DNA of 64,000 nucleotides from Candidatus Obscuribacteraceae bacterium (GCA_044229845.1 JBGASG010000002.1:160001-224000), one strand, 5' to 3'; shown: positions 3,858 through 22,748, counted from the stretch's first letter. A program made the numbers and translations. The notes: generated from the letters alone by a model not told the origin.

Positions 3858-3897
3858 AAACAAAAACACCACCCGAACTGAATCGCGGTGGTGTTTT
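3858..3897 (-). terminator. intrinsic terminator at the end of the repeat RNA (present in all nine copies)
   Basis: Minus strand AAAACACCACC-GCGATTCAGTTCG-GGTGGTGTTTTTGTTT. Confidence 0.8.
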
Positions 3898-4071
3898 CGC
3901 TACTGTCTGACTGCCCGTTGCTCGGGCTCAGTATTTCCTCACGCTTCAGCCAGTCCTTCACGTGGGGCGAGCTCACATCAGCTGTCGTTCCCGGTCAGCG
4001 CTGACCTGACGTTTCCGCTTGGCTCCTCGGCTCGACGCGATTGCAATTTCAGTTCAACCGCTCACCTGATG
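3858..4071 (-). ncRNA. putative structured ncRNA, unknown family (copy 1)
   Basis: -10 box TATTCT (4078-4083, minus strand), stems supported by compensatory changes among copies, terminator hairpin plus U-tract; 5' end inferred. Confidence 0.72.
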
Positions 4072-4357
4072 CATTCAAGAATACAGGTCAGTTTCACGCC
4101 CGAGAAGTACCCCAGAGGACCTTTAATAATCAGCGTTTTGCGTATACAAAACCCGCATCAGAAGCTATGGACTAGCACCACATTTGGTTAAGAAGCGCTC
4201 GATCCACGCGCGCCCCAAAGGGCTCAGGCATTCCATATTCTTTATATATAGGTACGCAATCGAATCGATCGCCCGCCCCGCCCCAATTTATATAAACGCA
4301 TCGCCAATAAGCGACTGCAGGCTCTAAAATGAGACAGAACAAAGGATCGCCACTCCA

Positions 4358-6094
4358 TTGGATCGAGACCGCGACGAGCCCCTCATAAGCAACAGCCACC
4401 CGTCCGGAGTCCTGCGCGCCGGCTACATTCTGGGCGACCGCTACCGCATCGAAGGCTGCATCGGCGCCGGGGGCATGGGCGGCGTGTATAAAGCTACGCA
4501 CATCGAACTGCGGAATACGGTCGCCATCAAAGTAATGCATTCGCGTTTCTCGGTCGACCAGAATGCAGTGGCGCGCTTCCATCGAGAAGCCAAAATCATC
4601 TCCGGACTGCATCACAAAAACATTTTGTCGGTCTACTCGTTTGGAAGCGCCGACGGACTTCTCTATTTGGCGATGGAATTCATCGACGGTCGGTCGCTTG
4701 GAGATTTGATCAGAGAACAAAAACTGCGGTCACAGAAAAACAATGCCATTGCGATTCTTCTGCAAATCTGCGATGCAATGGCTTACGCACACCACCAACA
4801 CGTATTGCACCGCGATCTCAAGCCCGACAATGTACTGATTACCAAGGCCGATCAGACAGCCAAAGTGGTCGACTTCGGATTGGCAAAATTGACTGACGAA
4901 GAAATGCAGCGACTGACAAGCACCGGTCTGGTCGTGGGAGATCCGCGCTATATGAGTCCGGAGCAGTCTCAGGGAAAACCAGTTGACGGACGCTCGGACA
5001 TTTATTCCTTTGGATGTTTGATGTACGAGCTGCTTGCCGGCCGCTGCCCATTCGATGCCGATGCGCCCGTTGCGATTCTCTTCAAACAGATCTCGGAAAA
5101 TCCCGAACTATTTGCTGACGAAACCAACCTTTCGCGCTCACTGCAAGCCATAACGCTGCAGTGCATGCAAAAGGATCCTCAGTTGCGTTATCAATCGTTT
5201 GAAGAAATTGCCGTGCAGTTGCAAATACTCGCGAGCGATCCTGATGCGAAAGTGGAAGGGAGCCACAGCAAAGCTCGTGCTGGTGCTCAAAAACATCCGG
5301 CATCCCCACAAAAAAAACGATTGCTCGCCGTCTTTACCGGGGTGGTTATCACTACGCTTGCCGGTCTGTGTGTGCTGCTTCTCTTGACCCAGTCAAACTC
5401 AAACACGAACGCAACCGGTAAGGATCAGCAAACCGATCACGATCTGCGCCAAGTGCTGGAAAAACTCAAACGCTCATACCACGACGAAGCAAAGTACAAA
5501 AGGGAGTCGCTGGAAGCAGAAAGCATCGCGTCCCAAAATCCCGGCGCGGTCAGTCCTCTTTATCGGGGGCGACTTGATTACGTTCACGCCAGGGTGCTGC
5601 AAGTGGAGACGTATCGATCAAGACCAGTTGAGAAACAGCAGCCCGGCTGGGAACAGGCGCTTAGCTACAGTCGCAAGTCAGTAGTTGAACTAAAGAAGGC
5701 GCGAGCAGATGACGCTTCCTCCTACAGCACTCACACGCGCACGGCAACCGGCTTGCTGATGATGAAGGAAGAAGATCAATATTTCTTCGATTCGATTTTG
5801 CTTTGGCAAGCGATGGCGGAGAAGTGCAATCGGGCCAATGAAGTCGAATCCTCAATGAACGAGATAATGGACTTCTGCGAACGATTCAAAATCGAATCCG
5901 ACTCCGCACCACGCATGACTCCGCTGTGGCAGCTGAAGATCAGTCGCATCGTGCAGACCGGCGATCGGACTGCAGCAAAAACCATCGCCGAGCGCTATTT
6001 GCGGTGCCTGAGGAAACAAGGCTATAAAGCAAGCTTTATTGACGATCAGGTGCGCGCAGTCAGAGCATTGGCGGGAATCGACTTACCGAATTGA
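4358..6094 (+). CDS. receptor-like Ser/Thr protein kinase, array paralog 1
   Basis: GAGGMG, VAIK, HRDLKPDN, DFG, YMSPE, DIYSFG; one TM segment; divergent helical C-terminal domain. Confidence 0.95.
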   Translation: MDRDRDEPLISNSHPSGVLRAGYILGDRYRIEGCIGAGGMGGVYKATHIELRNTVAIKVMHSRFSVDQNAVARFHREAKIISGLHHKNILSVYSFGSADGLLYLAMEFIDGRSLGDLIREQKLRSQKNNAIAILLQICDAMAYAHHQHVLHRDLKPDNVLITKADQTAKVVDFGLAKLTDEEMQRLTSTGLVVGDPRYMSPEQSQGKPVDGRSDIYSFGCLMYELLAGRCPFDADAPVAILFKQISENPELFADETNLSRSLQAITLQCMQKDPQLRYQSFEEIAVQLQILASDPDAKVEGSHSKARAGAQKHPASPQKKRLLAVFTGVVITTLAGLCVLLLLTQSNSNTNATGKDQQTDHDLRQVLEKLKRSYHDEAKYKRESLEAESIASQNPGAVSPLYRGRLDYVHARVLQVETYRSRPVEKQQPGWEQALSYSRKSVVELKKARADDASSYSTHTRTATGLLMMKEEDQYFFDSILLWQAMAEKCNRANEVESSMNEIMDFCERFKIESDSAPRMTPLWQLKISRIVQTGDRTAAKTIAERYLRCLRKQGYKASFIDDQVRAVRALAGIDLPN

Positions 6095-6095
6095 A

Positions 6096-6309
6096 AAACA
6101 AAAACACCACCCGAACTGAATCGCGGTGGTGTTCATGCTACTGCCTGACTGCCCGTTGCTCGGGCTCAGTATTTCCTCATGCTTCAGTCAGTCCTTCACA
6201 TGGGGCGAGCTCTCATCAGCTGTCGTTTCCGGTCAGCGCGGACCTGGTGTTTCTGCTTGGCTCCTCGGCTCGACGCGATTGCAACATCAGCTCAATCGCT
6301 CACCTGATG
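6096..6309 (-). ncRNA. putative structured ncRNA (copy 2)
   Basis: As copy 1. Confidence 0.7.
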
Positions 6310-6438
6310 CATTCAAGAATACACGGCAGCTTCATACCGGAGAAGTACCCCAGAGGACCTTTAATGATCGGCGCTTCGCGTATACAGAACCCACACCAGG
6401 AGCTATAGACCGGCACCACATTCGGTTAAGAAGCGCTC
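6096..6438. repeat. ~343-bp repeat, copy 2
   Basis: Collinear with copy 1. Confidence 0.97.
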
Positions 6439-6604
6439 GATCCACGCGCGCCCCAAAGGGTTCCGGCATTCCATATCGTTTATACAAGTACTTATATATA
6501 AACGCGACAGCGATCCGCCCTAAAGTCACCCGGTTCCATATAGACACATCGCTAACTATCAACCCGAGAGCGTAAAATGAGAAGGAACAAAGGAAGCATC
6601 GTAA

Positions 6605-8338
6605 TTGGATCAAGACCTCCCGAGCACCATACAATCCGGCACGATTCTCGACGGCAAGTACCGCATCGAAGGCTACATCGGCGCGGGCGGTATGGGTAGC
6701 GTCTACAAAGCGATACACGTGCAGCTCGGCAACCCGGTCGCCATCAAAATCATGCACCCGCGGTTTTCACTCGACACCAATTCGACAGCCAGGTTCCACA
6801 GAGAAGCGAAGATCATTTCCGGGCTGCATCACAAGAACATTCTGGCGGTCTATGCATTTGGTTCCAGCGACGGATCTCTATACATGGCAATGGAATTCGT
6901 TGATGGGCAGTCGCTAGGAGATCTGATCAGGGAGCGCGGACCGATGGCGCCGGAAAGTGCAGTACAAATACTCCTACAGATTTGCGAGGCGATGACCTAC
7001 GCGCACCGGCACAAAGTATTACATCGCGATTTAAAACCAGACAACGTACTTTTGGAGCGAGACACCGCGCTGGCAAAAGTCGTCGACTTCGGACTGGCTA
7101 AACTGACTGACGCGGAAACGCAACGACTGACGAGTACCGGCATGATCGTCGGTGACGCGCGCTACATGAGCCCCGAGCAATCGCAAGGCAAGCCGATCGA
7201 TCAACGTTCAGACGTGTACTCATTCGGCTGCCTGATGTATGAAACACTTGCGGGACGCTGCCCGTTTGAAGCAGATACGCCGGTTGCGGTTTTGTTCAAG
7301 CAAGTCTCAGAGGATCCGCAGCCCTTCGCCGCCGATTCGAATATCTCGCGTTCGCTGCAGGCAATTACACTCCAGGCAATGCAGAAGGAGCAACAACAGC
7401 GCTATCAATCGTTTGAAGAGATCGCCACACAATTGCAAAAACTCGTCGGCGATCCAAATGCAAAAGTCGACGGCAGTCACCGTAAAGCATTACCAAAATC
7501 GGCCGGCTCAGGCAGAATGAACAAAGCCACGGCGCTCACAGCGGTACTACTCCTCGCCCTGGCAGCAGTACTGGTGCAGCCGTTGCTGGCATTTTTTCTG
7601 CCGCGCGCGCTGGACAACGAGAACACAACCGGCAATCAGCAATCGAAGCGAACGGCAGAAATGCAAATAGCCAACTTGATACGACAACTAGTATTGCGCG
7701 GTCCTCGCGACGAGCAATTCAGCTCGCTTCTCAACGAAGCCGAATCAATTGCAAAGCAAAATCCTGACATCGACCTCGCGTTCAAGGGTCGTCTCAAATT
7801 TATGCACGGGCGATTAATCGAATCCCGCCACCTAGCAACACACGCCAAGCCAAATATCTTCAGCGATCTGAAGGCTCAAGATAAGCGCAACCTGCAGGAG
7901 GGGCTAAATTACAGCCGCATTGCGGTAAACGAATTACGACAGTCCATGACCGACGCGGAATCGCATCGTGTCTGGAAATCAGAAACCGCCAGTGGATTGA
8001 AACCTCTGCTCGTCGAAGAAATACACTTTCTCGAGTCGCTGGCGCTCTGGCGAGAGATGTCCATTCTGTGCGATTCGTTTTCGGAGATAGAAGCTGCTTC
8101 GGCCCAGATATTTCAAATCTCGGATAGATACAAAATCGACTACGCCAACGAAGCATTAGTGCGCTCTGCGTATGCCGAGTTGATCGAGTTTTACAGGCTT
8201 CGGCACAAGACGTCCGCTGCCGACATCTTGACGAAACGCTATCTGGACAATTTGAAACTGCAGGGCTGCGATCCGCTATTCATCGCCGATGAGCAAAAGC
8301 GGCTACAAACGCAAAAACAAAAACACCACCCGAACTGA
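6605..8338 (+). CDS. receptor-like Ser/Thr protein kinase, paralog 2
   Basis: Complete Hanks motifs, TM segment; ends KQKHHPN inside repeat 3. Confidence 0.95.
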   Translation: MDQDLPSTIQSGTILDGKYRIEGYIGAGGMGSVYKAIHVQLGNPVAIKIMHPRFSLDTNSTARFHREAKIISGLHHKNILAVYAFGSSDGSLYMAMEFVDGQSLGDLIRERGPMAPESAVQILLQICEAMTYAHRHKVLHRDLKPDNVLLERDTALAKVVDFGLAKLTDAETQRLTSTGMIVGDARYMSPEQSQGKPIDQRSDVYSFGCLMYETLAGRCPFEADTPVAVLFKQVSEDPQPFAADSNISRSLQAITLQAMQKEQQQRYQSFEEIATQLQKLVGDPNAKVDGSHRKALPKSAGSGRMNKATALTAVLLLALAAVLVQPLLAFFLPRALDNENTTGNQQSKRTAEMQIANLIRQLVLRGPRDEQFSSLLNEAESIAKQNPDIDLAFKGRLKFMHGRLIESRHLATHAKPNIFSDLKAQDKRNLQEGLNYSRIAVNELRQSMTDAESHRVWKSETASGLKPLLVEEIHFLESLALWREMSILCDSFSEIEAASAQIFQISDRYKIDYANEALVRSAYAELIEFYRLRHKTSAADILTKRYLDNLKLQGCDPLFIADEQKRLQTQKQKHHPN

Positions 8339-8528
8339 ATCGCGGTGGTGTTTATGCTACTGCCTGACTGCCCGTTGCTCGGGCTCAGTATCTCCTCACG
8401 CTTCAGCCAGTCCTTCACGTGGGGCGAGCTCACATCAGCTGTCGTTTCCGGTCAGCGCTGACCTGGTGTTTCCGCTTGGCTCCTCGGCTCGACGCGATTG
8501 CAATTTCAGTTCAATCGCTCACCTGATG
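8315..8528 (-). ncRNA. putative structured ncRNA (copy 3)
   Basis: As copy 1. Confidence 0.7.
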
Positions 8529-8823: not shown

Positions 8824-10587
8824 TTGGATCACACAGACGAACAGCAACTTGCCTCGAATACGCAGTCGCTTGCGGGCGGCGGATTGTCCACAGGCACGAT
8901 TCTTGACGGCAAATTTCGCATTGGTAGCTATATCGGCGGTGGAGGCATGGGCGCAGTCTTTAGCGCCACTCATCTGAAGTTAGGAAATCAGGTAGCCATC
9001 AAAGTTCTGCACTCTCGATTTGCGGTCGATCAAAATGCGGTGGCACGGTTTCATCGCGAAGCAAAAATCATCGCCGGGCTGCACCACAAAAACATTCTTT
9101 CCGTCTACGCTTTCGGTTCAGCAGATGGGCTCTTGTACATGGCAATGGAGCTTGTCGACGGCAAGTCGCTTGGAGACCTGATCGCACAGCACGGATCGTA
9201 TTCACCGGAGCGAGCCATTCCCCTTCTTCTTCAGATTTGCGATGCCATGAGTTATGCGCACCAACAAAAAGTCTTGCATCGCGACTTGAAGCCGGACAAC
9301 GTGCTCGTAACCAATGCCGATGACACAGCAAAAGTCGTCGACTTCGGGCTGGCAAAACTTACTGATGCAGAGATGCAAAGACTGACCACCACCGGCATGG
9401 TGGTCGGCGATCCGCGCTACATGAGCCCGGAGCAATCACAAGGCAAGCCGGTCGATGCTCGCTCCGACATCTACTCTTTCGGTTGCTTGATGTATGAAAT
9501 GTTGGCCGGAAGGCGTCCGTTCGACGCTGATACACCGGTTGCAATTCTTTTCAAGCAGATCTCCGAATACCCCGAATCTTTTGCAGATCAGACCAACATT
9601 TCACTGTCGCTTCAGGCGATAGCGTTTCAGGCTCTGCAAAAAGATCCGCAGGCACGGTATCAATCAATTGACGACCTGTCCAGCCAACTGCTCAAGTTGT
9701 CGCGAAATCCAGATGCAAAAGTCGAAGGAGTACGCGCTGGTGGCACGCCTACCCAGTCGCGCAGCACAACCGGAAGTCGCGCAGCGCGCCAGCATGCACT
9801 AAAAATGCTGATCGGTGCATTGCTAGTTGTGGGAGCAATCACGGTCGGCATGGTCATCATTGGCACCAGCACTCGACTGAGCAACGAAGAAGGGCTGCGA
9901 GCAAGCACCCGGCACGAAGTCAGACTTGAGTTCGACTCGCTGATTTCCAACCAGGGCTTTGTCGGCGACCAGAACCCCACAGACGCTCTGGAGCGAGCGC
10001 AAATCCTAGTTGCCCAGTACCCAGAGGAATTCAATTCCAGCGATCGAGCGAAGCTTGATTTGGTACAGGCTCTGAATTTCGAGAGGCTGGGTCGTTATAG
10101 AGAACCAGACAAAATAAAACTCGCGCAGACGCATAACAAAGGGGCCATTTCTCAACTGGAGACTGCCCTCAAAGTACATTCCGACCATCGCCGCCAAAAC
10201 AACATGCCCACGACGGATGCCGGCATGGAACCCTGGAGTAGTGATTCACGTTATTTATTTGAAGCACTACTGCTCCAATCAAGGTTGGCCGATCGAACCG
10301 GCGACCTCAAAGAGATGCGGAGCGCCATAGACTCGCTCCTCTCATTCGCAGAAAAATACGAGTTACCCTACACCATAGACAGGCGCCTGCTAAGAGAGGC
10401 GTGCGAAAGGTTGATTATGGCTTACGGTCAAGCGAACGACAGGCAGGCAGCAGAACAAGTACTGCAGCGCTTTATGAATTGCCTGGCAACTCAAGGTGAC
10501 ATCACCGCATTTACCGATAACGATGAACGATTGCTGCGCGACACCATGGAAAAGGCCTTCGACAAACAAAAACACCACCCGAACTGA
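8824..10587 (+). CDS. receptor-like Ser/Thr protein kinase, paralog 3
   Basis: Complete Hanks motifs, TM segment; ends KQKHHPN. Confidence 0.95.
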   Translation: MDHTDEQQLASNTQSLAGGGLSTGTILDGKFRIGSYIGGGGMGAVFSATHLKLGNQVAIKVLHSRFAVDQNAVARFHREAKIIAGLHHKNILSVYAFGSADGLLYMAMELVDGKSLGDLIAQHGSYSPERAIPLLLQICDAMSYAHQQKVLHRDLKPDNVLVTNADDTAKVVDFGLAKLTDAEMQRLTTTGMVVGDPRYMSPEQSQGKPVDARSDIYSFGCLMYEMLAGRRPFDADTPVAILFKQISEYPESFADQTNISLSLQAIAFQALQKDPQARYQSIDDLSSQLLKLSRNPDAKVEGVRAGGTPTQSRSTTGSRAARQHALKMLIGALLVVGAITVGMVIIGTSTRLSNEEGLRASTRHEVRLEFDSLISNQGFVGDQNPTDALERAQILVAQYPEEFNSSDRAKLDLVQALNFERLGRYREPDKIKLAQTHNKGAISQLETALKVHSDHRRQNNMPTTDAGMEPWSSDSRYLFEALLLQSRLADRTGDLKEMRSAIDSLLSFAEKYELPYTIDRRLLREACERLIMAYGQANDRQAAEQVLQRFMNCLATQGDITAFTDNDERLLRDTMEKAFDKQKHHPN

Positions 10588-10777
10588 ATCGCGGTGGTGT
10601 TAATGCTACTGCCTGACTGCCCGTTGCTCGGGCTCAGTATTTCCTCATGCTTCAGTCAGTCCTTCACATGGGGCGAGCTCACATCAGCTGTCGTTTCCGG
10701 TCAGCGCGGACCTGGTGTTTCTGCTTGGCTCCTCGGCTCGACGCGATTGCAACTTCAGTTCAATCGCTCACCTGATG
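10564..10777 (-). ncRNA. putative structured ncRNA (copy 4)
   Basis: As copy 1. Confidence 0.7.
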
Positions 10778-11063: not shown

Positions 11064-12851
11064 GTGGAATCCCAAGAAACAGCCGGCGCACTGCCCAACG
11101 GCACTGTCGTCGACGGCAAATTCGAAATCACCGGATTCATCGGCGCCGGCGGCATGGGCACCGTCTATCGCGCCCGCCACATTGAGCTGGGCAGCGCCGT
11201 GGCCCTCAAAACACTGCACCCGCGTTTTTCGGTGGACCAGGACGCGTCCGCTCGTTTTCGTCTCGAAGCCAAGATCATCGCCGGGCTGCACCACAAAAAC
11301 ATTCTGGCCGTGCACGCGTCCGGCTACAGCAACAACTTGCTCTACATGGCAATGGAATTGATCGAAGGAACTTCGCTGAGGGCAATGGTTGCAGAAGGCG
11401 GCTCCCTGAGCACCAGCGCAGCGTTGCCTCTTTTGATCCAGATTTGCGACGCGATGATTTATGCACATGCCAACAAGGTTTTGCATCGCGACTTAAAACC
11501 GGACAATGTATTGATCGAAACCAGGGGCACCGAGCGAACTGCCAAGGTCGTCGATTTCGGACTGGCTAAATTGACCGACATCGAAATGCAACGCTTGACA
11601 CAGACTGGGATGGTCGTCGGCGATCCGCATTTCATGAGCCCCGAGCAGGCTCAAGGCAGACAGGCGGATGAGAGGTCGGACATCTACTCATTCGGTTGCT
11701 TGATGTATGACGTGTTGTCAGGCAAGCCTCCCTTCGAGTCAGACTCCGATGTGGCGGTGCTCTTCAAGCAGGTCTCCGACGAACCACAACTCTTCGCAGA
11801 CGCGAAGGCGCCCGCGTGCTTGCGGTCGTGTCAATCGATTTGCTTTCAGGCGATGGAAAAGAATCCGGAGAGTCGATATCAGTCTTTTCAGGAAGTTCGC
11901 AATGAGTTGCAGAAACTTGCAGACAATCCCGATGCGAAGATTTCCGCCTCGTCAAGAATGGCTAAGGAGGCCGCAGCGGGACGAGGTCCCGGAGCGCACA
12001 AATTCCGTCGTTTGCCTGCAACAGTTGCCGCCGTTGCGTTGTTTGCGCTGCTTTGCTTCGCGGCTGCGAAGTTCTTGCACCAAGAAGATGCAGACACACC
12101 GACCGACAAAACCCCGTCGACTGCATCCCAACCCGACGTCGCTAAATTGAAGGAAGCGTACAAGAACCTCAGCGAACGCGATGCACGAGAGAGAGTCAAA
12201 GAATTGATTTCGGTGCTCCAGCGCGCACATCTTTCGGAGTCCGCACGAAAAGCGACTTTTGCAGAGCTGGACATTGCGGAATCGCGTATCGGTTTCGACC
12301 CATTGCAGAGCGGACGTGCCGAATACGAACGAGCGGCATCAATGATGCGCTCCGTAATGGAGCAACCGCAGAGGAATCTGACCATGGATACGGTCGAAGG
12401 TCGCGAAGCCATCGAGCATTGCCGCAAGGCGCTCGCTCACTACAATAAGATCATCTCGCTCTACCAGCGCAGACCAACAGTGAACGACGCAGAGCTGAGC
12501 GATATCAACGCCGCCTCCGTTGAACTGTACCGCACTTACTCTCTCCTGATTCAGATCGCGAATACATACAGTGACTACAAAACAGTGAAGAAGGCCGCGA
12601 AAGAGTGCGTTCGACTCTGCGAATACGCGAAAGTGCCGCCAGGCACTCTGGAAGCTTGCCAGACAGCATTCGACACACTGATCATGATCGACGTTCAAGA
12701 CGTTGATACTGAGGGCGCGCAGAGTATGTCGCAGCGCAAGTTGGCTTTTCTAAAATTGCAGGGCTTCGATGCCGATTCGCTGAAGGAAGAGAAAAGAAAC
12801 CTGACAATCAAGATGCGGGAATGGTCAAAACAAAAACACCACCCGAACTGA
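11064..12851 (+). CDS. receptor-like Ser/Thr protein kinase, paralog 4
   Basis: Complete Hanks motifs, TM segment; ends KQKHHPN. Confidence 0.95.
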   Translation: MESQETAGALPNGTVVDGKFEITGFIGAGGMGTVYRARHIELGSAVALKTLHPRFSVDQDASARFRLEAKIIAGLHHKNILAVHASGYSNNLLYMAMELIEGTSLRAMVAEGGSLSTSAALPLLIQICDAMIYAHANKVLHRDLKPDNVLIETRGTERTAKVVDFGLAKLTDIEMQRLTQTGMVVGDPHFMSPEQAQGRQADERSDIYSFGCLMYDVLSGKPPFESDSDVAVLFKQVSDEPQLFADAKAPACLRSCQSICFQAMEKNPESRYQSFQEVRNELQKLADNPDAKISASSRMAKEAAAGRGPGAHKFRRLPATVAAVALFALLCFAAAKFLHQEDADTPTDKTPSTASQPDVAKLKEAYKNLSERDARERVKELISVLQRAHLSESARKATFAELDIAESRIGFDPLQSGRAEYERAASMMRSVMEQPQRNLTMDTVEGREAIEHCRKALAHYNKIISLYQRRPTVNDAELSDINAASVELYRTYSLLIQIANTYSDYKTVKKAAKECVRLCEYAKVPPGTLEACQTAFDTLIMIDVQDVDTEGAQSMSQRKLAFLKLQGFDADSLKEEKRNLTIKMREWSKQKHHPN

Positions 12852-15585: not shown

Positions 15586-17304
15586 GTGGAAGACAGCTCA
15601 TCCGACAAGCAACCTATCCTGCTAGAGCCAGACGAGATACTGGAAGACAAATATCGCGTCGTCCGCTTTCTCGGCCGCGGTGGCATGGGCAGCGTCCATG
15701 AGGCAATCCACACACACCTCGGCAACCGCGTTGCCATCAAGCTCTTGCATCCCCGTTTGTCAGGCGATGAAAAGCAGCTCGCCAGGTTTCAGCGTGAGGC
15801 GCACATCATTTCGGGGCTGCGACACAAGAACATCTTGTCGGTCTATGGCTTTCATCGCTGGCGCAACATGCCTTTTATGGCGATGGAGTTTATCGAAGGG
15901 GAATCGATCCGCGATCTACTGATAGAGCGGCAGGGCAATCTCTCAGCAACGGAGGCGCTGCCCCTGTTTCTGCAAATCTGCCAGGCTATGCAATTTGCTC
16001 ATAACAACAGCGTGCTGCATCGCGACCTCAAACCAGACAATGTGCTGGTTGTGAAGGAGAGCGACGGCTCACTGACGGCAAAAGTCGTTGACTTCGGACT
16101 GGCCAAACTGCAAGGGACCAACGAGATGCAGAAACTGACCAGCACCGGGCAGGTGGTCGGAGACCCGCATTATATGAGCCCCGAGCAATGCCAGGGCACG
16201 CAGCTCGATGCGCGCTCGGACATCTATTCATTCGGTTGCCTCATGTATGAAGTCTTGACGGGCGCGCGACCGTTCCTCGGCGATTCACCGGTTGCCACCA
16301 TGTATGAGCATCTGCAGAAAAACGCCAAGCCGTTTGCGAAACAATGCGGATTGCCGCTGGCAATCGAAGGCATCGTATTCAAGGCGATTGCCAAGGACCC
16401 TCGCCATCGCTACCAGTCTTTTGAAGAGCTGGCGGCTGACTTAGAAGAATTCTCCCGCAATCCGCAGATGCCGAGCATGCGTGCCGTGTCCGCCCCCACA
16501 GGTGGTGGCATGACTCCCGCAGCAAGAAGTGCCGTTTTGATCATCTTGCTCGGAGCGCTCATCTGCCTGCTTTATGTGTTCAGCCGCCCGCAGGCAGCAA
16601 CCGATCCTTACGCCAACATCTCCGACTCAGAGTTGCGAGCCCGCGCTGTTCCGGCATTGGCGAAGGCGCGCGATGCTTCGCGCAACCACGAGTTCGAGCA
16701 AGCTGATTCGTTTCTCGCCACAGTAGACGAACTGCGCAAACACCTGAACAACGACCCTTATCTCGAAGGGCGCATTGATTATCAACATGGCGAACAGTAT
16801 CTCGAAAGATTCAGAGTCACCCAAAACAAAGAGTTTGCCGCCTTAGCCAAACAATACTTGCTGAAGGCTGATGCCGACTTCAAAAGGGCCCGTGCGTCCT
16901 TATCGGCGACAAGCGGAAAGACTCAGCTGCACGACATCGAATGGCAGATGATCTCCAATCTGGACATGCTGCTCGCGGTCGGGCTGGAATCCTCCGGCTC
17001 CACAGCGGGTGACGAAGCATCGCAGCGACTGCTGGAAGAACTAGAACAAGCACCGCCACCACTGGAGTACATGCAGGGACATTCGGTGCAGAAGGCATTC
17101 AACTGGCTATTCACGCGCCGCATCAGCGAAGGGAAACCTGACGCGGCGGCGGCTCTACTGATACGCAAAATCGATTTTTCCTTACGGCAAGACTCCGATA
17201 CCGACTTTATTGCGCGGGAGAAAAAACGCATGCTGTCTGAAATCGCCGCCGTCGATCCCGTCCTGGCAAAACGGGTGCAGCAGCGGCTGGAAAAGCGCAA
17301 GTAA
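15586..17304 (+). CDS. receptor-like Ser/Thr protein kinase, paralog 6
   Basis: Complete Hanks motifs, TM segment. Confidence 0.95.
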   Translation: MEDSSSDKQPILLEPDEILEDKYRVVRFLGRGGMGSVHEAIHTHLGNRVAIKLLHPRLSGDEKQLARFQREAHIISGLRHKNILSVYGFHRWRNMPFMAMEFIEGESIRDLLIERQGNLSATEALPLFLQICQAMQFAHNNSVLHRDLKPDNVLVVKESDGSLTAKVVDFGLAKLQGTNEMQKLTSTGQVVGDPHYMSPEQCQGTQLDARSDIYSFGCLMYEVLTGARPFLGDSPVATMYEHLQKNAKPFAKQCGLPLAIEGIVFKAIAKDPRHRYQSFEELAADLEEFSRNPQMPSMRAVSAPTGGGMTPAARSAVLIILLGALICLLYVFSRPQAATDPYANISDSELRARAVPALAKARDASRNHEFEQADSFLATVDELRKHLNNDPYLEGRIDYQHGEQYLERFRVTQNKEFAALAKQYLLKADADFKRARASLSATSGKTQLHDIEWQMISNLDMLLAVGLESSGSTAGDEASQRLLEELEQAPPPLEYMQGHSVQKAFNWLFTRRISEGKPDAAAALLIRKIDFSLRQDSDTDFIAREKKRMLSEIAAVDPVLAKRVQQRLEKRK

Positions 17305-17359
17305 CCGCGGCGACAGGCGGTAGCATATACTAGTTAGGACACCGAGCGTACCTAAACCA

Positions 17360-19270
17360 TTGGATCCGGACGAGACACCGAACGACCCGCAAAATTCCAA
17401 CCATGCGCCGTCACCGTCGCTGCAGCCGGGCGCGATCATCGATGAGAAGTACGAACTGAAAAAGTTCATCGGCATGGGAGGCATGGGCGCGGTCTACAGC
17501 GCGGTACACCGGCAACTGGGAACGGACGTCGCCATTAAGGTGCTGCATCCTCGCTTCGGCGTCGATCAAGAATCGGTGGCCAGGTTTCAGCGGGAAGCAC
17601 GCATCATAGCCTCATTGAGACACGCCAACATTCTCAGTGTGTACAGTTTCAATTCATGGCAGGGCATCTTTTACATCGCCATGGAATTGATCGAAGGCGA
17701 TTCGCTGGTGGCATACATTTTTGACGGCGACAGGCTGCGCAAGCCTGAGGATAAACTGCCTTTGCTCATACAAGCCTGCCGAGCAATGAGCTTCGCACAC
17801 AAGAACGGCGTGCTGCATCGCGACCTCAAACCCGACAACGTGCTGGTCGTGAACAACCCCGACGGCAGTCAATCAGCGAAAGTTGTCGACTTCGGATTGG
17901 CAAAACTGCAGGGTGCTTCCGACGTACAACAACTGACGCGCACCGGCGAAGTGTTCGGCGATCCCAATTACATGAGCCCCGAGCAATGCCAGGGCAAGCC
18001 ACTCGATGAACGCTCCGATATCTATTCATTTGGATGCCTCATGTATGAATTATTTTCCGGGGTGAGACCGTTTGAAGCCGACACACCGCTCGGCACTCTC
18101 TACAAACACTTGCAAGACAACCCGCAGCGCTTCGCCAAACAAGTGGGGATTTCCAGTGCGCTGGAAGAAATCATTTTTCGCGCCATGGAAAAATCGCGCG
18201 AACAACGCTACGAGTCATTCGACGAAATCGCCGCCGACCTGACCCGCTTCATCGATAACCCGCAATTGAAGGCGAGCAGCTCGGTGCCTCCGGGTGGTTT
18301 TTCAGGACGGCGCCCAGCCGTACGCAACACCGCATCTGATACCAGCGGCTCAGCGTGGCGCAAAGTTTCGTCGCGGGTGATGCTGATTGTTCTTTGCCTC
18401 TTGCCCGCAGTGACTGCCGCGGTTGTCCTGATGACTCGGCGCGATGCAGAAAATGATGGTGGTCATGGTACTAGCGATGATGGTCGACACGGATTCGTCA
18501 ACCTGTCCCAGCTCGAATTGCGCACGCGAGCACTTGAGCTTTGTTCGCGCACAGCGTTGCTCGTAGCCCGAGAACGTTTTCCAGAAACAGAGACCAACCT
18601 GGCTGAACTGGATCAGCTGCGCCTGCATCTGGAGCACCAGCCCTACGTCGAAGCTCAGATAGATTTTCTGCACGGGTGGTATCAGTTGCAGATGTATCGC
18701 CGGTTGAAAGTACCGGCAGACGGAAAGAACGGAGTGAATTACCTGCGACGCTCGCTGCAAGAATACGACCAGGCATACGCCGATGCCTCCGCCAATGGTG
18801 GCGAGGCTAGTAAAACACGACTGGATGAAATAGCCACTCACAAATTCGAAGCCGCCGATCAATTGCGCTATCTGGGACTCGCTTCTGATGATGCACAAGC
18901 CACACGCCAGGGAGCATTGGAAGTAATCAGGCTGGTCAGACACCTGCCCGATAAACCGGACTACGACCAGTTGAAGGCACTGCAGCAGTCGTACGACGTA
19001 CTGATTCAAATGAATGCCGCCAAAGGAAATTACGAGCGCGCACTGAAGCTGATGTGGCGCAAACTTACTTTTCTCGAACGACAAGGATGCGATCCGGCTT
19101 TCGTTGCCAGTGAACGCAAACGCCTGGAAGTTATGATCAACGAATTGGGCGGTGCCAAAGCGGTGACTCAACTGTCGCCGAAACTGGAAGCAGAGATTCG
19201 CAAGCAATCAGCTTTGCGACACGGCTCCGCGCCCAGTGCCGACCCCGGCATCGACGATATCGAGAAGTGA
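17360..19270 (+). CDS. receptor-like Ser/Thr protein kinase, paralog 7
   Basis: Complete Hanks motifs, TM segment; no repeat between it and paralog 6. Confidence 0.95.
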   Translation: MDPDETPNDPQNSNHAPSPSLQPGAIIDEKYELKKFIGMGGMGAVYSAVHRQLGTDVAIKVLHPRFGVDQESVARFQREARIIASLRHANILSVYSFNSWQGIFYIAMELIEGDSLVAYIFDGDRLRKPEDKLPLLIQACRAMSFAHKNGVLHRDLKPDNVLVVNNPDGSQSAKVVDFGLAKLQGASDVQQLTRTGEVFGDPNYMSPEQCQGKPLDERSDIYSFGCLMYELFSGVRPFEADTPLGTLYKHLQDNPQRFAKQVGISSALEEIIFRAMEKSREQRYESFDEIAADLTRFIDNPQLKASSSVPPGGFSGRRPAVRNTASDTSGSAWRKVSSRVMLIVLCLLPAVTAAVVLMTRRDAENDGGHGTSDDGRHGFVNLSQLELRTRALELCSRTALLVARERFPETETNLAELDQLRLHLEHQPYVEAQIDFLHGWYQLQMYRRLKVPADGKNGVNYLRRSLQEYDQAYADASANGGEASKTRLDEIATHKFEAADQLRYLGLASDDAQATRQGALEVIRLVRHLPDKPDYDQLKALQQSYDVLIQMNAAKGNYERALKLMWRKLTFLERQGCDPAFVASERKRLEVMINELGGAKAVTQLSPKLEAEIRKQSALRHGSAPSADPGIDDIEK

Positions 19271-19280
19271 AAACGCGCAC

Positions 19281-19495
19281 AAACAAAAACACCACCCGAA
19301 CTGAATCGCGGTGGTGATCATGCTACTGCCTGACTGCCCGTTGCTCGGGCTCAGTATTTCCAAACGCTTCAGTCAGTCCGTCACGTAAGGCGAGCTCACA
19401 ACAGCTGTCGTTCCCGGTCAGCGCTGACCTGATGTTTCCGCTTGGCTCCTCGGCTCGAAGCAATTGCATTTCTCAATCAATTGCTCACCGGTTAT
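19281..19495 (-). ncRNA. putative structured ncRNA (copy 7)
   Basis: As copy 1; extended -10 TGcTATTCT. Confidence 0.7.
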
Positions 19496-19625: not shown

Positions 19626-19781
19626 GGCCAACAAGCTGCGCAAGCGATGGCGCGATCGAATATGCGATACATATCACCGAACGCGCATGCCATTTCAAGA
19701 AACTTTCAACCGCACCTCACTAGCATGTCGGCAAAAGCAAGCAGTCCTTGTATAACAGAGGAAGGCACAGGGTTTTCAAGA

Positions 19782-21130
19782 TTGGACCACGACGAAACGG
19801 CAATCGACAACGCGCGACTATCAACCGGAACCGTCGGACAACGTCATCGTTGTGAAGAGCGAAGAAAAGCTTTCGACAGCAACGGTGAAAGTGGTCGATT
19901 TTGGATTAGCCAAGTTGCAAGGCGACAACGACATGCAGCGGCTGACCAGAACCGGCGAAGTCTTCGGCGACCCAAGCTACATGAGCCCAGAAGCCGTTTC
20001 CTGCCGACAATCCAGTCGCCATCTTGATGAAACAGGTTTCGCAAGAACCACCTCCGCTGCCTCAACAGCTGGCGGTGCCGCCCGCGATCGAGGCGATTAT
20101 CTGGCGCGCCATGCAGAAAGACCCGGCTGAGCGGTACGACTCATTCGATGCAATCGCAGCAGAGCTGCGCAACTATGCCGACAATCCCGAGGCGGGAAGC
20201 CGCGCGCGACTGCCGGCGCGCAGCATCGGCGGACAGGCAGGGAAGAAGGGCAAGCAACGATTGCTTGTGACTGGAGCAATCGCGGTCGGTGTTTTTATTG
20301 CCGCGGCGGGGATGTACCTGGCATCAACCAACACACACAACACCGCGACTACAGCCTGCGAGCCATACGAACACCTGTCGCCGAACGAACTGCGACAGCG
20401 CGCCTACGCCCTCATGACGTCGGCATCCGATGCCGCCAAGCTCGGGCAGTATGAGGACGCCAACAAAACGCTGGCTGAGTTGCAGAGATTGCGACGTTAT
20501 CTGGTCACTGACGAAGATACGCAGGGGCACATCGACTACAACATCGCCTTCGTAGCGATGGCCGAAGGAGACAACAATTCCAAAGCACTGCAGCGCAAAG
20601 CCCTCGACTACTATTGCAGTTCAGCCGAACATCTCAAGAAAGCGCGCACCGCGATTTTGTCCAGCAGTCAGCCGCTGTCCAGCTTGCAACTTTTGAAAAT
20701 CGAGGAAGGATTGATCCTGTCCCTCGATGGCGAGCGGCGGGTGGCGGGATATCTGCAAGACAAAACCGCCGCCGATCGCGCCTGTCGCGAGACGCTTGAT
20801 TTTTGCGAAGGCAAATCCGCACCGATTGATAAAGGCAGGAGTCACTCTGCGCAAGCCAGTTTCGACTGGCTGTTCTCTCGAGCTATCCAGACGAAACGCC
20901 TGAAGCGCGCCTACAAACTGATGAAGCGGAAGATAGCGTTTCTTGAGATGCAGAAAGTCGATCCTGGTTTCTTGCAAGAAGCGCGAACCAGCATGGAACA
21001 TCAACTGGTTGAAGCAGCCGCGAATCAGCAAGGCAAGCGTTTCTCCAAATTTGAAGATGCCGAAGATGCGACGGATGCAGAAGATGCGACGGATGCAGAA
21101 GATGCGACGGATGCAGAAGATGCGCAGTGA
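19782..21130 (+). pseudogene. Ser/Thr kinase paralog 8 with two internal frameshifting deletions; TM and C-terminal domain intact (ORF 20024-21130)
   Basis: TTG-DHDETAIDNARLSTGTV jumps to DNVIVVK...DFG...YMSP, then to KPFPADNPVAILMKQ, each in a different frame. Confidence 0.85.
21062..21124 (+). repeat. 18-bp tandem repeat, 3.5 copies (GAAGATGCGACGGATGCA, encodes EDATDA)
   Basis: Directly visible. Confidence 0.95.
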
Positions 21131-21134
21131 ACAC

Positions 21135-21349
21135 AAACAAAAACACCACCCGAACTGAATCGCGGTGGTGTTTAAGCTACTGCCTGACTGCCCGTTGCTC
21201 GGGCTCAGTATTTCCAAACGCTTCAGTCAGTCCGTCACGTAAGGCGAGCTCACAACAGCTGGTGTTTCCGGTCAGCGCTGACCTGATGTTTCCGCTTGGC
21301 TCCTCGGCTCGAAGCAATTGCATTTCTCAATCAATTGCTCACCGGTTAT
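21135..21349 (-). ncRNA. putative structured ncRNA (copy 8)
   Basis: As copy 1. Confidence 0.7.
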
Positions 21350-21479
21350 GCATATAAGAATAGCAAGTAATTCCGAGGCGTGCCACTACCCCAATGGACC
21401 TTTAATGATCTAATTTCCGCGTATACGGAAGGCGCATCAACACTTATTGTTTGGCACCACATGTGGTTACTAAGCGCTT
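21135..21479. repeat. ~345-bp repeat, copy 8
   Basis: Collinear; very close to copy 7. Confidence 0.97.
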
Positions 21480-21647
21480 GAACCATTTGCGGCACAACGC
21501 GATCGACAAACGCATATTCGATCCATATATCATCCGAGAGGGGATCTGAGATCAGGGTTTACCCGGGAAACTCGACAGTACTCGACCGGCTACCCGAAAC
21601 CGGCGCCGGACGTACGATAGAAGTGCCCGCCCAACTTGGCAACGCCC

Positions 21648-22403
21648 ATGAAGACATCCCTGACGTTCAGCATCGCCCTCAGTTTTTTGCTATCAGCGAC
21701 ACTCGGCTGGACCGCTGCGGAGGCAGCTCCTGAGAAGGAGAAGCAGCAGCCCGGCAAACTGATTCCGCTGTCCGCGACCTTCGACAGCAGCAGAACTCTG
21801 CAGGGGCATCTGGAAGTTAAGGGCAATCGCGTGGCGCTGAGATCGCGTACAGCCAGGCGCTCCGGTAACCTGGCCGCCGTGTCCCCCTCGCGCCGACGCA
21901 TGTCGGGGCGGGCTACCCTTGCCGCACGACGGCGTGCGTTATCGGCGATAACTGCGTCGTCCGCCGAATCCGGGTTCAAGCTGGCGGTGGCGACGAGTTC
22001 GCCGCGCCCCAAACTGTCCGCTGCCGCCGCGCCTAAACTGGCAATGGCAGTGCCGGCTCAGCAGCTGCAAACCCGGGTTTCGAAATCGCACGTCCAGACC
22101 GCGGCAGCGGCTCAGGAAGATGCGGATTGCACCTGCCACGAAGCACGCAAACTCGTGGACCAGAAACGCTACAGCGAGGCAGCCATAGCCTACGAAAAAT
22201 ACGCGGACAAGCTGCTGAAGACCTTCAACAAGGAAAACGGCGACTACGCCAGCGCGCTCACCTGGCAGGGCTACAGCCTGGAGATGCAGGGTCGCAAGAA
22301 GGAAGCTCGCAAAATATTGGAGAAGGCAGCGGCTGTCTATCGCACCGCCGATCCTGAAGACGAGACCCTCGAATGGATCGAAGATCGGCTGGCAGAGCTG
22401 TAA
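21648..22403 (+). CDS. exported protein with C-terminal TPR-like domain
   Basis: Signal peptide MKTSLTFSIALSFLLSATLGWTAAEA, basic low-complexity linker, TPR-like helices. Confidence 0.75.
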   Translation: MKTSLTFSIALSFLLSATLGWTAAEAAPEKEKQQPGKLIPLSATFDSSRTLQGHLEVKGNRVALRSRTARRSGNLAAVSPSRRRMSGRATLAARRRALSAITASSAESGFKLAVATSSPRPKLSAAAAPKLAMAVPAQQLQTRVSKSHVQTAAAAQEDADCTCHEARKLVDQKRYSEAAIAYEKYADKLLKTFNKENGDYASALTWQGYSLEMQGRKKEARKILEKAAAVYRTADPEDETLEWIEDRLAEL

Positions 22404-22618
22404 AAACAAAAACACCACCCGAACTGAATCGCGGTGGTGTTCATGCTACTGCCTGACTGCCCGTTGCTCGGGCTCAGTATTTCCAAACGCTTCAGTCAGT
22501 CCGTCACGTAAGGCGAGCTCGCGATAGCTGTAGTTTCCGGTCAGCGCTGACCTGATGTTTCCGCTCGGCTCCTCGGCTCAAAGGCGTCGCATTTCTCAAT
22601 CGACGACTCACCGTTGAT
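22404..22618 (-). ncRNA. putative structured ncRNA (copy 9)
   Basis: As copy 1. Confidence 0.7.
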
Positions 22619-22748
22619 GAAAGTAAGAATAGCGCGGATCTCGAGGTTCGACCACTACCCCAAATGACCTTTAATGATCTTCGTTTTGCGTATACAAAAG
22701 CGGCATAAACACTTATGTCTTGGCACCACATTTGGTTACTAAGCGCTT
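22404..22748. repeat. ~345-bp repeat, copy 9
   Basis: Collinear; most divergent 5' stem. Confidence 0.97.

What the first reader, a model, noticed from the sequence alone, without database searches (positions are those of the whole stretch)
3858..22748. Array of receptor-like kinases alternating with nine copies of a conserved ncRNA-bearing repeat
Seen: nine collinear ~343-bp non-coding repeats start at 3858, 6096, 8315, 10564, 12828, 15088, 19281, 21135 and 22404. They separate eight intervals holding seven intact kinase-TM-sensor genes, one kinase pseudogene and one exported TPR protein. The first ~210 bp of the repeat are much better conserved than the adjacent kinase 3' halves. No integrase, transposase, reverse transcriptase or Cas gene is in the window. 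Inference: the amplified unit is a structured RNA gene paired with a kinase gene, divergent from one kinase and convergent on the other, and both parts are under selection. This could be an undescribed kinase-plus-RNA signalling or defence system, with the RNA acting as antitoxin, ligand, scaffold or antisense regulator. I know of no described system with this layout.
Basis: partly seen in the sequence, partly recalled or inferred. Interest (0 to 1): 0.93.

Follow-up and report, generated by a model that had tools for sequence, protein, structure and literature searches.

The report
Known poplar-1 RNA genes, kinase array
The nine repeats are genes for an already catalogued but functionally unexplained small RNA (poplar-1) of Obscuribacter-like bacteria, and their alternation with kinase genes is a duplication history peculiar to one genus, not a new kinase-plus-RNA system.

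Summary
Nine collinear repeats lie at the stated coordinates, separating seven intact Ser/Thr kinase genes, one broken kinase and one small exported protein.

All nine repeats are full-length matches to Rfam RF03041, poplar-1, on the minus strand (131.7-137.2 bits, cut-off 110.5).

Each copy is a self-contained gene: a conserved promoter region, an RNA of about 210 nt, and an intrinsic terminator. Covariation across 140 copies supports the Rfam stems, a 5' hairpin, a pseudoknot and the terminator.

The family was found in 32 of 36 other genomes of the window's family and 3 of 3 of a sister family. It was found in 0 of 21 other genomes of the class and 0 of 150 of the phylum. Record titles name Obscuribacterales/Melainabacteria.

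Outside this genus, kinases flank the RNA no more often than chance: 4 of 58 copies against an 8.7% background. The array kinases' ectodomain was found only in this genus.

This scan had already identified poplar-1 on other genomes. The RNA's function remains unknown.

The parts
3858..4070 (-). poplar-1 RNA gene, copy 1. Terminator 3858-3895, Rfam motif 3896-4036, 5' hairpin P0 4037-4061, predicted start near 4070.
   Evidence: Rfam 137.2 bits. Terminator, P0 and pseudoknot covary. The start is inferred from the -10 box only.
4071..4218 (-). Conserved promoter/upstream region of copy 1: -10 box TATTCT 4078-4083, GGGGTA box 4108-4113, distal block up to about 4218. The equivalent region follows each of the other eight copies.
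   Evidence: Invariant columns of A1. Conserved across genera directly 5' of the motif. The profile hits only the nine copies in the genome.
6096..6308 (-). poplar-1 RNA gene, copy 2
   Evidence: Rfam 131.7 bits at 6134-6274; A1 and A2
8315..8527 (-). poplar-1 RNA gene, copy 3
   Evidence: Rfam 137.0 bits at 8353-8493
10564..10776 (-). poplar-1 RNA gene, copy 4
   Evidence: Rfam 131.9 bits at 10602-10742
12828..13040 (-). poplar-1 RNA gene, copy 5
   Evidence: Rfam 135.1 bits at 12866-13006
15088..15301 (-). poplar-1 RNA gene, copy 6
   Evidence: Rfam 136.8 bits at 15126-15266
19281..19495 (-). poplar-1 RNA gene, copy 7
   Evidence: Rfam 133.9 bits at 19319-19459
21135..21349 (-). poplar-1 RNA gene, copy 8
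   Evidence: Rfam 135.4 bits at 21173-21313
22404..22618 (-). poplar-1 RNA gene, copy 9
   Evidence: Rfam 135.2 bits at 22442-22582
4358..6094 (+). K1: Hanks-type Ser/Thr kinase, one TM helix (aa 321-347), helical ectodomain of about 230 aa
   Evidence: Pkinase E 1.3e-53; hydropathy; promoter-like TCGCCA-18-TAAAAT at 4301-4330
6605..8338 (+). K2 kinase; its last 8 codons (KQKHHPN, stop) lie inside the terminator of RNA copy 3
8824..10587 (+). K3 kinase; same tail overlap with RNA copy 4
11064..12851 (+). K4 kinase; same tail overlap with RNA copy 5
13330..15111 (+). K5 kinase; same tail overlap with RNA copy 6
15586..17304 (+). K6 kinase
17360..19270 (+). K7 kinase; follows K6 with no RNA gene between them
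19647..21130 (+). Broken kinase: homology split over two frames. It keeps a recognisable ectodomain, and the equivalent gene is also split in the sister species.
21636..22403 (+). 255-aa ORF with a signal-peptide-like N-terminus and weak TPR similarity
2531..3820 (-). M16 peptidase gene directly downstream of RNA copy 1 on the same strand; this is the conserved ancestral slot of poplar-1
   Evidence: The same arrangement is seen in L014, L019, L024 and L083, L059, L092, L076, L087.

Best explanation
Each repeat is a complete gene for poplar-1 RNA (Rfam RF03041), a family confined, among the genomes searched, to the order Obscuribacterales (non-photosynthetic relatives of cyanobacteria).

A unit consists of four parts:
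- about 140 bp of conserved upstream DNA with a TAnnnT -10 box and a GGGGTA box near -40
- an RNA of about 210 nt that starts with a variable hairpin (P0)
- the 141-nt Rfam core: three stems, plus a pseudoknot between the P2 loop and the 3' internal loop of P3
- an intrinsic terminator

The RNA is transcribed on its own and acts in trans. It is not part of the kinase mRNAs.

The alternation with kinases arose in the common ancestor of this genus. A cassette of one receptor-type kinase plus one poplar-1 gene, at the ancestral poplar-1 slot beside the M16 peptidase gene, was duplicated in tandem several times. Afterwards the RNA genes stayed nearly identical under purifying selection, while the kinase ectodomains diverged almost beyond recognition.

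Shown: identity, strand, structure, terminator, taxonomic range, lack of a general kinase link, and presence in RNA libraries.

Inferred: the transcription start; the duplication mechanism; and that the RNA works as a folded, probably self-pairing (dimeric) protein- or ligand-binding RNA rather than as an antisense regulator. That last point rests on the pseudoknot, the many invariant unpaired bases and the always self-complementary P1b tetraloop.
For: Identity:
- Nine full-length RF03041 hits, 131.7-137.2 bits against cut-off 110.5.
- These are the only nine in the genome.

Strand and terminator:
- A hairpin plus T-run follows every complete copy and is kept by compensatory changes across genera.
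- A U-G pair is present in 119 of 140 sequences at columns 156/186.

Structure, on 140 copies:
- 96.9% of cells are paired, against 82.5% in shuffles and 31-39% in slid controls.
- 46 of 52 pairs change on both sides.
- P0: 7 of 7 pairs covary. Pseudoknot: 6 of 6 covary, 98.8% paired. Terminator: 10 of 11 covary.
- The P1b loop is self-complementary in 140 of 140 copies allowing G-U, and a perfect palindrome in 128 (GCGC 118, GCGT 12, ACGT 6, GTAC 3, GGCC 1).

Promoter:
- TAnnnT is at least 90% conserved in A2.
- The upstream profile matches directly 5' of the motif across genera.
- In this genome the profile hits only the nine copies.

Taxonomic range:
- Window's family 32 of 36, sister family 3 of 3, rest of the class 0 of 21.
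- 0 of 150 other genomes of the phylum.
- Record titles name Obscuribacterales/Melainabacteria.

Expression:
- RNA-library contigs from four studies cover the RNA segment. Examples: 6184-6243 with no mismatch at contig depth 2733, and 6150-6277 with no mismatch at depth 397.9.
- Contigs on the flanking M16 and K1 genes have depths 3.8-5.1.
- A preprint lists poplar-1 among the RNAs enriched in intracellular RNA of drinking water (10.1101/2025.10.18.683149; passage read).

Cassette duplication:
- Repeat identity falls along the array in step with kinase identity. Copies 1-5 are at least 90% alike and go with K1-K5 (59-71%). Copy 6 is 73% and goes with K6 (51-53%).
- The array is collinear in the sister species.
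- The ectodomain family is genus-restricted.
- The M16/DapB/dUTPase slot recurs in other genera.
Against: - No transcription start or RNA end was measured. All the runs laid were contigs, which cannot show strand, ends or level, and RNA libraries can carry DNA.
- Single-sequence folding is unremarkable and does not separate the strands (z -1.39 against -1.37).
- The simple terminator scan did not list the RNA terminator, whose stem is bulged.
- An NtcA/CRP-type reading of the promoter failed. The full GT-N10-AC ... TAN3T pattern is present in only 47 of 177 units.
- The dimer idea rests on a small number of loop variants (22 of 140 sequences depart from GCGC), and no biophysical data exist.
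- Long retention of one RNA gene after almost every kinase, in two species, also fits a functional coupling in this genus. The comparative data cannot exclude that.
- In other genera's clusters the intervening genes are not paralogs, so co-amplification of a protein gene is unusual for this family and is not explained by a general rule.
Confidence: 0.85

Rival explanations
1. In this genus the kinase and the neighbouring poplar-1 gene form a functional module. Each receptor kinase controls, or is controlled by, its adjacent RNA copy, for instance through the shared divergent intergenic region, so the array is a bank of sensor-plus-RNA units.
For: - Eight of the nine RNA genes sit about 290-500 bp upstream of, and divergent from, a kinase gene or the broken kinase.
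- The arrangement has outlasted kinase divergence to 49-71% identity, and it is shared with the sister species.
- 8 of the 10 matches to this ectodomain family in the genome are in the array.
Against: - The RNA family exists without kinases in nearly all other genomes.
- Two more distant members of the ectodomain family (C16, C15) have no RNA neighbour.
- K7 has no RNA gene of its own.
- RNA copies 8 and 9 precede a non-kinase ORF and a DUF1232 gene.
- The conserved upstream region belongs to the RNA unit in every genus, whatever the neighbour.
- Tandem duplication alone explains the adjacency.
Confidence: 0.07
2. The RNA acts in cis as an antisense partner of the convergent kinase mRNA, whose 3' end overlaps the RNA gene.
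For: - K2-K5 end inside the RNA terminator, about 24 nt of overlap, with the tail KQKHHPN read from its antisense.
- On the plus strand the hairpin is followed by few T's, so kinase transcripts may read on into the RNA gene (inference).
Against: - In other genomes the gene downstream of the RNA is on either strand and of any kind.
- The conserved pseudoknotted fold and the invariant loops are not needed for antisense pairing.
- K1 and K7 stop before the repeat.
Confidence: 0.04
3. The array is a defence or toxin-antitoxin system, with kinase toxins or sensors neutralised or guided by an RNA, as in type III toxin-antitoxin loci or kinase-based anti-phage genes.
For: - PADLOC models PD-T4-6 and mad6 hit all seven kinases (E down to 1e-95).
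- RNA repeats beside protein genes recall ToxIN-type loci (recalled, not from a call).
Against: - The PADLOC hits cover only the catalytic domain (about residues 10-320), which any Hanks kinase matches. All NCBIfam hits are far below their cut-offs.
- The RNA is on the opposite strand, with its own promoter and terminator.
- No mobile-element or defence genes lie nearby.
- The RNA lies at housekeeping slots in other genera.
Confidence: 0.02
4. The repeat is a mobile element (MITE-like) or an assembly artefact.
For: It is multi-copy and dispersed in related genomes, 1-12 copies each.
Against: - All nine copies in this genome are in one array.
- Copies occupy conserved syntenic slots in other genera.
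- Covariation shows selection on an RNA fold.
- An independent assembly of a sister species has the same array.
- The kinase paralogs are far too diverged for collapse or expansion errors.
Confidence: 0.01

Closest known systems
poplar-1 RNA motif (Rfam RF03041, type Gene; sRNA; reported in Weinberg et al. 2017, Nucleic Acids Res 45:10811, PMC5737381)
   Same: All nine copies match the whole 141-position model above the curated cut-off, with the same stems. Occurrence in clusters fits what I recall of the family description, which I could not read here.
   Different: Nothing in kind. Added here:
- placement in Obscuribacterales
- a 5' hairpin, a covarying pseudoknot, a self-complementary tetraloop, a terminator and a conserved promoter region outside the Rfam model
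- a nine-copy array in which a kinase gene was co-amplified

I could not see the paper's supplement, and its main text mentions neither 'poplar' nor 'kinase'. Some of these features may therefore already be drawn there.
Tandem arrays of small-RNA genes with individual promoters, such as NsiR1 of heterocystous cyanobacteria, or multi-copy Qrr and PrrF RNAs (recalled, not from a call)
   Same: Several nearly identical sRNA genes lie head to tail, each with its own promoter and terminator. Copy number differs between relatives (1-12).
   Different: Those RNAs are short base-pairing regulators. poplar-1 is about 210 nt with a pseudoknot and many invariant unpaired bases. No target, chaperone or regulator is known, and here protein genes sit between the copies.
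Orphan complex-fold bacterial RNAs (raiA, ROOL, GOLLD, OLE; criteria for 'biochemically sophisticated' RNAs in PMC5737381, passage read)
   Same: A pseudoknot plus many highly conserved nucleotides. Self-complementary loop sequences could mediate RNA-RNA assembly, as reported for ROOL and GOLLD (bioRxiv 10.1101/2024.12.08.627333; abstract seen).
   Different: Much smaller, confined to one order, and no structure or multimer has been shown. No sequence or model similarity to those families: the only Rfam hits in the window are RF03041 and a tRNA.
Tandemly expanded bacterial Hanks-type receptor kinases (PknB/PknD-like)
   Same: N-terminal catalytic domain, one TM helix, extracytoplasmic domain.
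   Different: There is no PASTA, beta-propeller or other known sensor domain. The ectodomain is a genus-restricted helical domain with only a sub-threshold TPR-like lead. All NCBIfam kinase equivalogs score below their cut-offs.

Membership tests
poplar-1 RNA (Rfam RF03041) | Covariance-model score at or above the curated gathering score (110.5 bits) over the full model | tested here: met
   Nine of nine copies score 131.7-137.2 bits over model positions 1-141, on the minus strand.
poplar-1 RNA (Rfam RF03041) | Consensus stems maintained by compensatory changes | tested here: met
   The Rfam helices are 95.9-99.5% paired, with double changes in most pairs, on 140 copies. One added closing pair, 208/218, is weak (68.9%).
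poplar-1 RNA (Rfam RF03041) | Free-standing sRNA gene (Rfam type 'Gene; sRNA'), not a cis leader | tested here: met
   Each copy has its own conserved -10 box and its own covarying terminator. Neighbours are of any kind and on either strand. The transcript ends were not measured.
poplar-1 RNA (Rfam RF03041) | Origin and range as originally described (recalled: metagenomic only, no classified organism) | not testable with these tools
   The supplement is unreadable here. Here the family maps to Obscuribacterales genomes.
Type III toxin-antitoxin (ToxIN-like) | RNA repeats lie directly upstream of, and are co-transcribed with, an endoribonuclease toxin that processes them | tested here: not met
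   The RNA is on the opposite strand to the protein genes, each copy has its own terminator, and the proteins are Hanks kinases.
Kinase-based anti-phage genes (PD-T4-6, Stk2, mad6) | Match beyond the generic catalytic domain, or a defence-island context | tested here: not met
   PADLOC hits are limited to the catalytic domain. There are no defence or mobile genes nearby, and the genome has 118 such kinases.
Cis-regulatory leader or riboswitch of the kinase genes | Element on the same strand, within the 5' UTR of the regulated gene | tested here: not met
   The strand is opposite to the kinases, as also shown by the G-U pairs and the T-run.
MITE or other mobile repeat | Copies scattered genome-wide, with terminal inverted repeats and no conserved position | tested here: not met
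   Nine of nine copies lie in one array. Copies occupy syntenic slots in relatives. Terminal repeats were not specifically sought.
NtcA/CRP-type class II activated promoter | GT-N10-AC palindrome centred near -41.5, about 22 nt upstream of TAN3T | tested here: not met
   The full pattern is present in 47 of 177 units (37 of 3540 in shuffles). The left half-site is not conserved.
CsrB/RsmZ-type protein sponge | A CsrA/RsmA partner encoded in the genome | tested here: not met
   PF02599 was not found in G000, which is 88.41% complete. The control rings in 3 of 14 genomes.

The most novel reading that the evidence does not exclude
In this genus the co-amplified cassettes are working units. Each receptor kinase, with its own fast-evolving ectodomain, is wired to the poplar-1 gene beside it, through the shared divergent control region or by direct binding. 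The array would then be a bank of distinct sensors, each driving or reading out one copy of an abundant, self-pairing structured RNA. That would be a kinase-RNA signalling layout with no described precedent.
Probability: 0.06. Interest if true: 0.75.

Novelty: new member of a known kind. Interest (0 to 1): 0.3.

Why it matters
As filed, as a new kinase-plus-RNA system, the finding does not stand.

What remains useful is that poplar-1, an orphan RNA described only from metagenomes as far as I recall, can now be tied to a lineage, the Obscuribacterales. These bacteria are common in sludge, drinking-water and soil data sets. The RNA has a defined gene structure and a richer fold than the Rfam model shows: a 5' hairpin, a pseudoknot, and a loop that is always self-complementary. 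It also turns up in RNA libraries of several wastewater studies.

That makes its function testable: pull-downs, dimer assays, promoter reporters.

The array itself is a clean natural example of very different selection on neighbouring genes. The RNA genes are frozen while the kinase ectodomains between them diverge to 14-28% identity.

Tried and rejected
1. NtcA/CRP-type promoter. The consensus looked like GTA-N8-TAC, then 22 nt, then TAN3T. Only 47 of 177 units carry the full pattern, so I dropped it.

2. CsrA sponge, suggested by GGA motifs in the loops. No CsrA gene was found.

3. Shared regulon. The promoter profile hits nothing else in the genome (next best E = 3.9).

4. A conserved protein partner. 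The TPR neighbours in five genera are not orthologous, and the census of 102 neighbour ORFs shows only syntenic slots.

5. Unequal crossing-over as a general rule that amplifies whatever lies between RNA copies. In other genera the intervening ORFs are not paralogs, so this stays an explanation for this genus only.

6. Single-sequence folding gave no signal on either strand.

7. The simple terminator scan missed the RNA terminator, and its promoter-like sites were no more frequent than in shuffles (3 against a mean of 3.3).

8. Reads. The laid RNA contigs left the upstream conserved region (bins 4104-4406) and most of K1 without cover. Adapter-joined contig ends near 4059, 6292, 6126 and 3921 did not define RNA ends.

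9. The small shares (0.06-0.15) of the 21 RNA-labelled runs say nothing about habitat for the 17 I did not lay.

10. The supplement of PMC5737381 could not be read.

11. Literature searches for 'poplar-1' (1 paper), 'RF03041' (0) and 'Obscuribacter' with 'small RNA' (0) found no functional study.

12. Atlas look-up of the K1 ectodomain gave only a sub-threshold TPR/DUF2225 lead (0.87). No structure prediction was run.

13. Viral contigs gave 2 pattern matches. One has no profile hit, and the other is a 2.6-kb contig too short to judge.

Full report
OBSERVATION

The repeat finder returns one family of nine 300-nt direct repeats. They start at 3858, 6096, 8315, 10564, 12828, 15088, 19281, 21135 and 22404. 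Their identity to the first copy is 100, 90, 92, 90, 93, 73, 72, 70 and 66%.

The intervals hold seven intact ORFs with a protein kinase domain (Pkinase E from 8.7e-46 to 1.3e-54). One interval holds a kinase whose homology is split over two overlapping frames. One holds a 255-aa ORF with a signal-peptide-like start and a sub-threshold TPR hit.

The array is flanked on the left by an M16 peptidase gene (2531-3820, minus strand) and dapB. On the right it is flanked by a DUF1232 gene and a tRNA. The rest of the window is ordinary chromosome, with no integrase, transposase, reverse transcriptase or Cas family among the ORFs scanned.

WHAT THE REPEAT IS

A scan of the window against Rfam 15 gives nine full-length matches to RF03041, poplar-1 RNA. 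All are on the minus strand, at 131.7-137.2 bits against a gathering score of 110.5 (alignments).

These nine are the only matches in the whole assembly, which is 5.16 Mb in 22 contigs and 88.41% complete. So the element is a known family, and it is not scattered through the genome.

The family comes from Weinberg et al. 2017 (PMC5737381). Its main text mentions neither 'poplar' nor 'kinase', and the supplement that describes the motif could not be read. From memory only: the motif was reported from metagenomes of a poplar-chip bioreactor, with no classified host, and often in several nearby copies. No paper in the library gives it a function. One preprint lists it among RNAs enriched in intracellular RNA of drinking water (passage read).

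Three earlier reports of this scan, on other genomes, reached the same identification.

ANATOMY OF ONE UNIT

Aligning the nine intergenic regions on the RNA strand (A1) shows that the Rfam core is followed at once by an invariant hairpin plus T-run. About 190 nt upstream of the core is also conserved.

In 35 copies from 29 other genomes the hairpin is kept by compensatory changes, and the T-run is always present in complete copies. It therefore has the form of an intrinsic terminator, and it fixes the transcribed strand.

I then aligned 140 units, nine from the window and 131 from other genomes, thinned at 80% shared 9-mers (A2). I wrote a full structure onto the alignment and had the pairs counted:
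- 96.9% of cells are paired, against 82.5% in column shuffles and 31-39% when partners are slid.
- 46 of 52 pairs change on both sides.
- A 5' hairpin outside the Rfam model (P0) covaries in 7 of 7 pairs.
- A pseudoknot between the P2 loop and the 3' internal loop of P3 covaries in 6 of 6 pairs and is 98.8% paired.
- The terminator covaries in 10 of 11 pairs.
- A U-G pair present in 119 of 140 sequences would be A-C on the other strand.

The P1b tetraloop is GCGC in 118 copies, GCGT in 12, ACGT in 6, GTAC in 3 and GGCC in 1. It is self-complementary in all 140 if G-U is allowed. A four-base loop cannot pair with itself within one molecule, so this suggests loop-loop or duplex pairing between two RNA molecules. 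That is inference, not shown.

Upstream of P0, a TAnnnT box is at least 90% conserved. A GGGGTA box lies about 22 nt further up, and a third block lies about 135 nt up. Placing the start 7-8 nt after the -10 box gives an RNA of about 210 nt (for copy 1, roughly 4070 down to 3860). This start is predicted, not measured.

The promoter profile finds only the nine copies in this genome. The promoter is not a credible NtcA site.

Its 'first ~210 bp' is the transcript.

EXPRESSION

Nineteen runs on record as RNA, plus two doubtful ones, hold 6-15% of the sampled words of window 3700-6700. That is about the length of the RNA.

I laid four of them, from four different studies, all as contigs. They cover the RNA segments of copies 1 and 2 with exact or near-exact pieces: 6184-6243 with no mismatch, 6150-6277 with no mismatch, and 3909-4016 with three mismatches. 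Contig depths run from hundreds to thousands. Near-exact contigs on the M16 peptidase gene and on K1 have depths of 3.8-5.1.

Contigs cannot show strand, ends or level, and depths sum over copies and organisms. This shows presence in RNA libraries and fits an abundant RNA, but it does not prove one.

WHERE THE FAMILY OCCURS

With the Rfam model, poplar-1 was found in:
- 32 of 36 other genomes of the window's family, at 1-12 copies each
- 3 of 3 genomes of a sister family, at scores just under the cut-off
- 0 of 21 genomes of seven other families of the class
- 0 of 150 other genomes from 29 families of the phylum

Nearly all their titles read Candidatus Obscuribacterales, Obscuribacteraceae, Obscuribacter or Melainabacteria. 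Seven pattern loci had no profile hit and are chance matches.

THE KINASE LINK, FROM THE RNA SIDE

- Of the 29 best-hit-per-genome loci, 3 have a kinase ORF within 1.5 kb, and one of those is the same-genus array.
- Of 65 distinct copies with at least 1.5 kb on both sides, 11 have one. Seven of these are on the sister-species array, which leaves 4 of 58.
- The window's genome has 118 kinase-domain ORFs. Outside the array, 8.7% of its positions lie within 1.5 kb of one. There is no enrichment.
- In a census of the nearest ORF on each side of 59 copies (102 ORFs), kinases are 2.
- The recurrent neighbours mark syntenic slots. The M16 peptidase lies directly downstream on the same strand in 5 loci there, 3 more, and at window copy 1. 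UbiD, dUTPase/DapB, topoisomerase and a PALP enzyme also recur.
- The TPR neighbours are not orthologous to each other.

THE KINASE LINK, FROM THE KINASE SIDE

- The kinases next to poplar-1 in other genera find their best matches among other kinases of this genome, not among the array kinases.
- A profile of the seven ectodomains (A3) hits only the window's genome and its sister species, out of 41 genomes searched. In the window's genome it hits the eight array genes, plus two distant members on other contigs that have no RNA neighbour.
- In other genera's clusters the intervening ORFs are not paralogs, and several clusters are RNA-only tandems spaced at 400-870 bp.

THE KINASES

Each has a Hanks-type catalytic domain, one TM helix at about residues 305-360, and a helical C-terminal domain of 230-270 aa with no Pfam or NCBIfam family. 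The Atlas gives only a sub-threshold TPR-like lead.

The PADLOC hits (PD-T4-6, mad6) cover the catalytic domain alone and are generic.

The paralogs are old: 49-71% identity in the kinase domain and 14-28% in the rest. K2 and K7 have 92% and 98% identical counterparts in the sister species.

K2-K5 end in KQKHHPN. This is the antisense reading of the RNA terminator, so these ORFs overlap the convergent RNA gene by about 24 nt.

EXPLANATION

The array is best read as repeated tandem duplication, in the ancestor of this genus, of a cassette of one receptor kinase and one poplar-1 gene. The duplication took place at the ancestral poplar-1 slot beside the M16 peptidase gene.

Repeat identity and kinase identity fall together along the array, which fits duplication of whole cassettes. 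After that the RNA genes were held by purifying selection, as in all other genera, while the ectodomains diverged. The sister species also carries decaying copies, so the array evolves by birth and death.

The RNA itself is a free-standing, terminated, probably abundant transcript. Its pseudoknotted fold and invariant unpaired bases point to a protein- or ligand-binding role, possibly as a dimer, rather than to antisense regulation. Its function is unknown.

A functional coupling of kinase and RNA restricted to this genus cannot be excluded, but nothing requires it. I give it about 6%.

VERDICT

The claim of an undescribed kinase-plus-RNA system is not supported.

The finding is a new, unusually large set of members of a known orphan RNA family, in an unusual genus-specific arrangement.

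Noticed in passing
window 34820-39340: A response regulator with an Hpt domain (34820-35572), a KaiB-domain protein with a long N-terminal extension (36474-37094) and a KaiC homolog (37826-39340) lie together in this non-photosynthetic relative of cyanobacteria.
   Followed up: no
window 42652-44193 (-) and 51630-53858 (+): Two proteins combine TPR repeats with a caspase (Peptidase_C14) domain. A further Ser/Thr kinase lies between them at 49427-51505.
   Followed up: no
window 25820-27562 and 27585-32048: A Ser/Thr kinase fused to pentapeptide repeats is followed by a 1487-aa TPR protein with a TonB C-terminal domain.
   Followed up: no
window 8315-8338, 10564-10587, 12828-12851, 15088-15111: The last eight codons of K2-K5 (KQKHHPN, stop) are read from the antisense of the poplar-1 terminator hairpin. 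The protein tail is thus a by-product of the RNA gene, and the stop codon sits in the hairpin loop.
   Followed up: partly
A2 columns 113-116 (window copy 1: loop of hairpin GGTCAGCGCTGACC): The P1b tetraloop is self-complementary in 140 of 140 copies allowing G-U (GCGC, GCGT, ACGT, GTAC, GGCC), and many whole hairpins are perfect palindromes. This suggests pairing between RNA molecules.
   Followed up: partly
window RNA copies 2 and 4 versus copies 1, 3, 5 (A1, A2): Copies 2 and 4 share several derived states, including a compensatory C-G to U-A pair in P2 and the CUGACUG pseudoknot variant. Yet K2 and K4 are not each other's closest kinases. This hints at gene conversion among the RNA copies.
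   Followed up: no
L031 (G006:C1:2647022-2650162); L110, L113, L114: Other genera carry RNA-only tandems of poplar-1, four copies at 490-870 bp spacing or pairs at about 400-480 bp, with no sizeable ORF between them.
   Followed up: partly
L058/L072 (CAWICA01), L106 (DATNPX01), L116/L138 (DATNPN01), L048 (DATNPY01): Public titles call these poplar-1-bearing MAGs Bryobacterales, Oculatellaceae, Planktothrix or Drouetiella.
   Followed up: partly
L189 (IMGVR_UViG_3300031868_000161, 2581 nt): A short contig filed as viral carries a poplar-1 copy. It is too short to tell whether it is viral.
   Followed up: no
G001:C10:43763-46291: The sister species' array ends in ectodomain fragments interrupted by stop codons, which are decaying kinase copies beside still-intact poplar-1 genes.
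   Followed up: no
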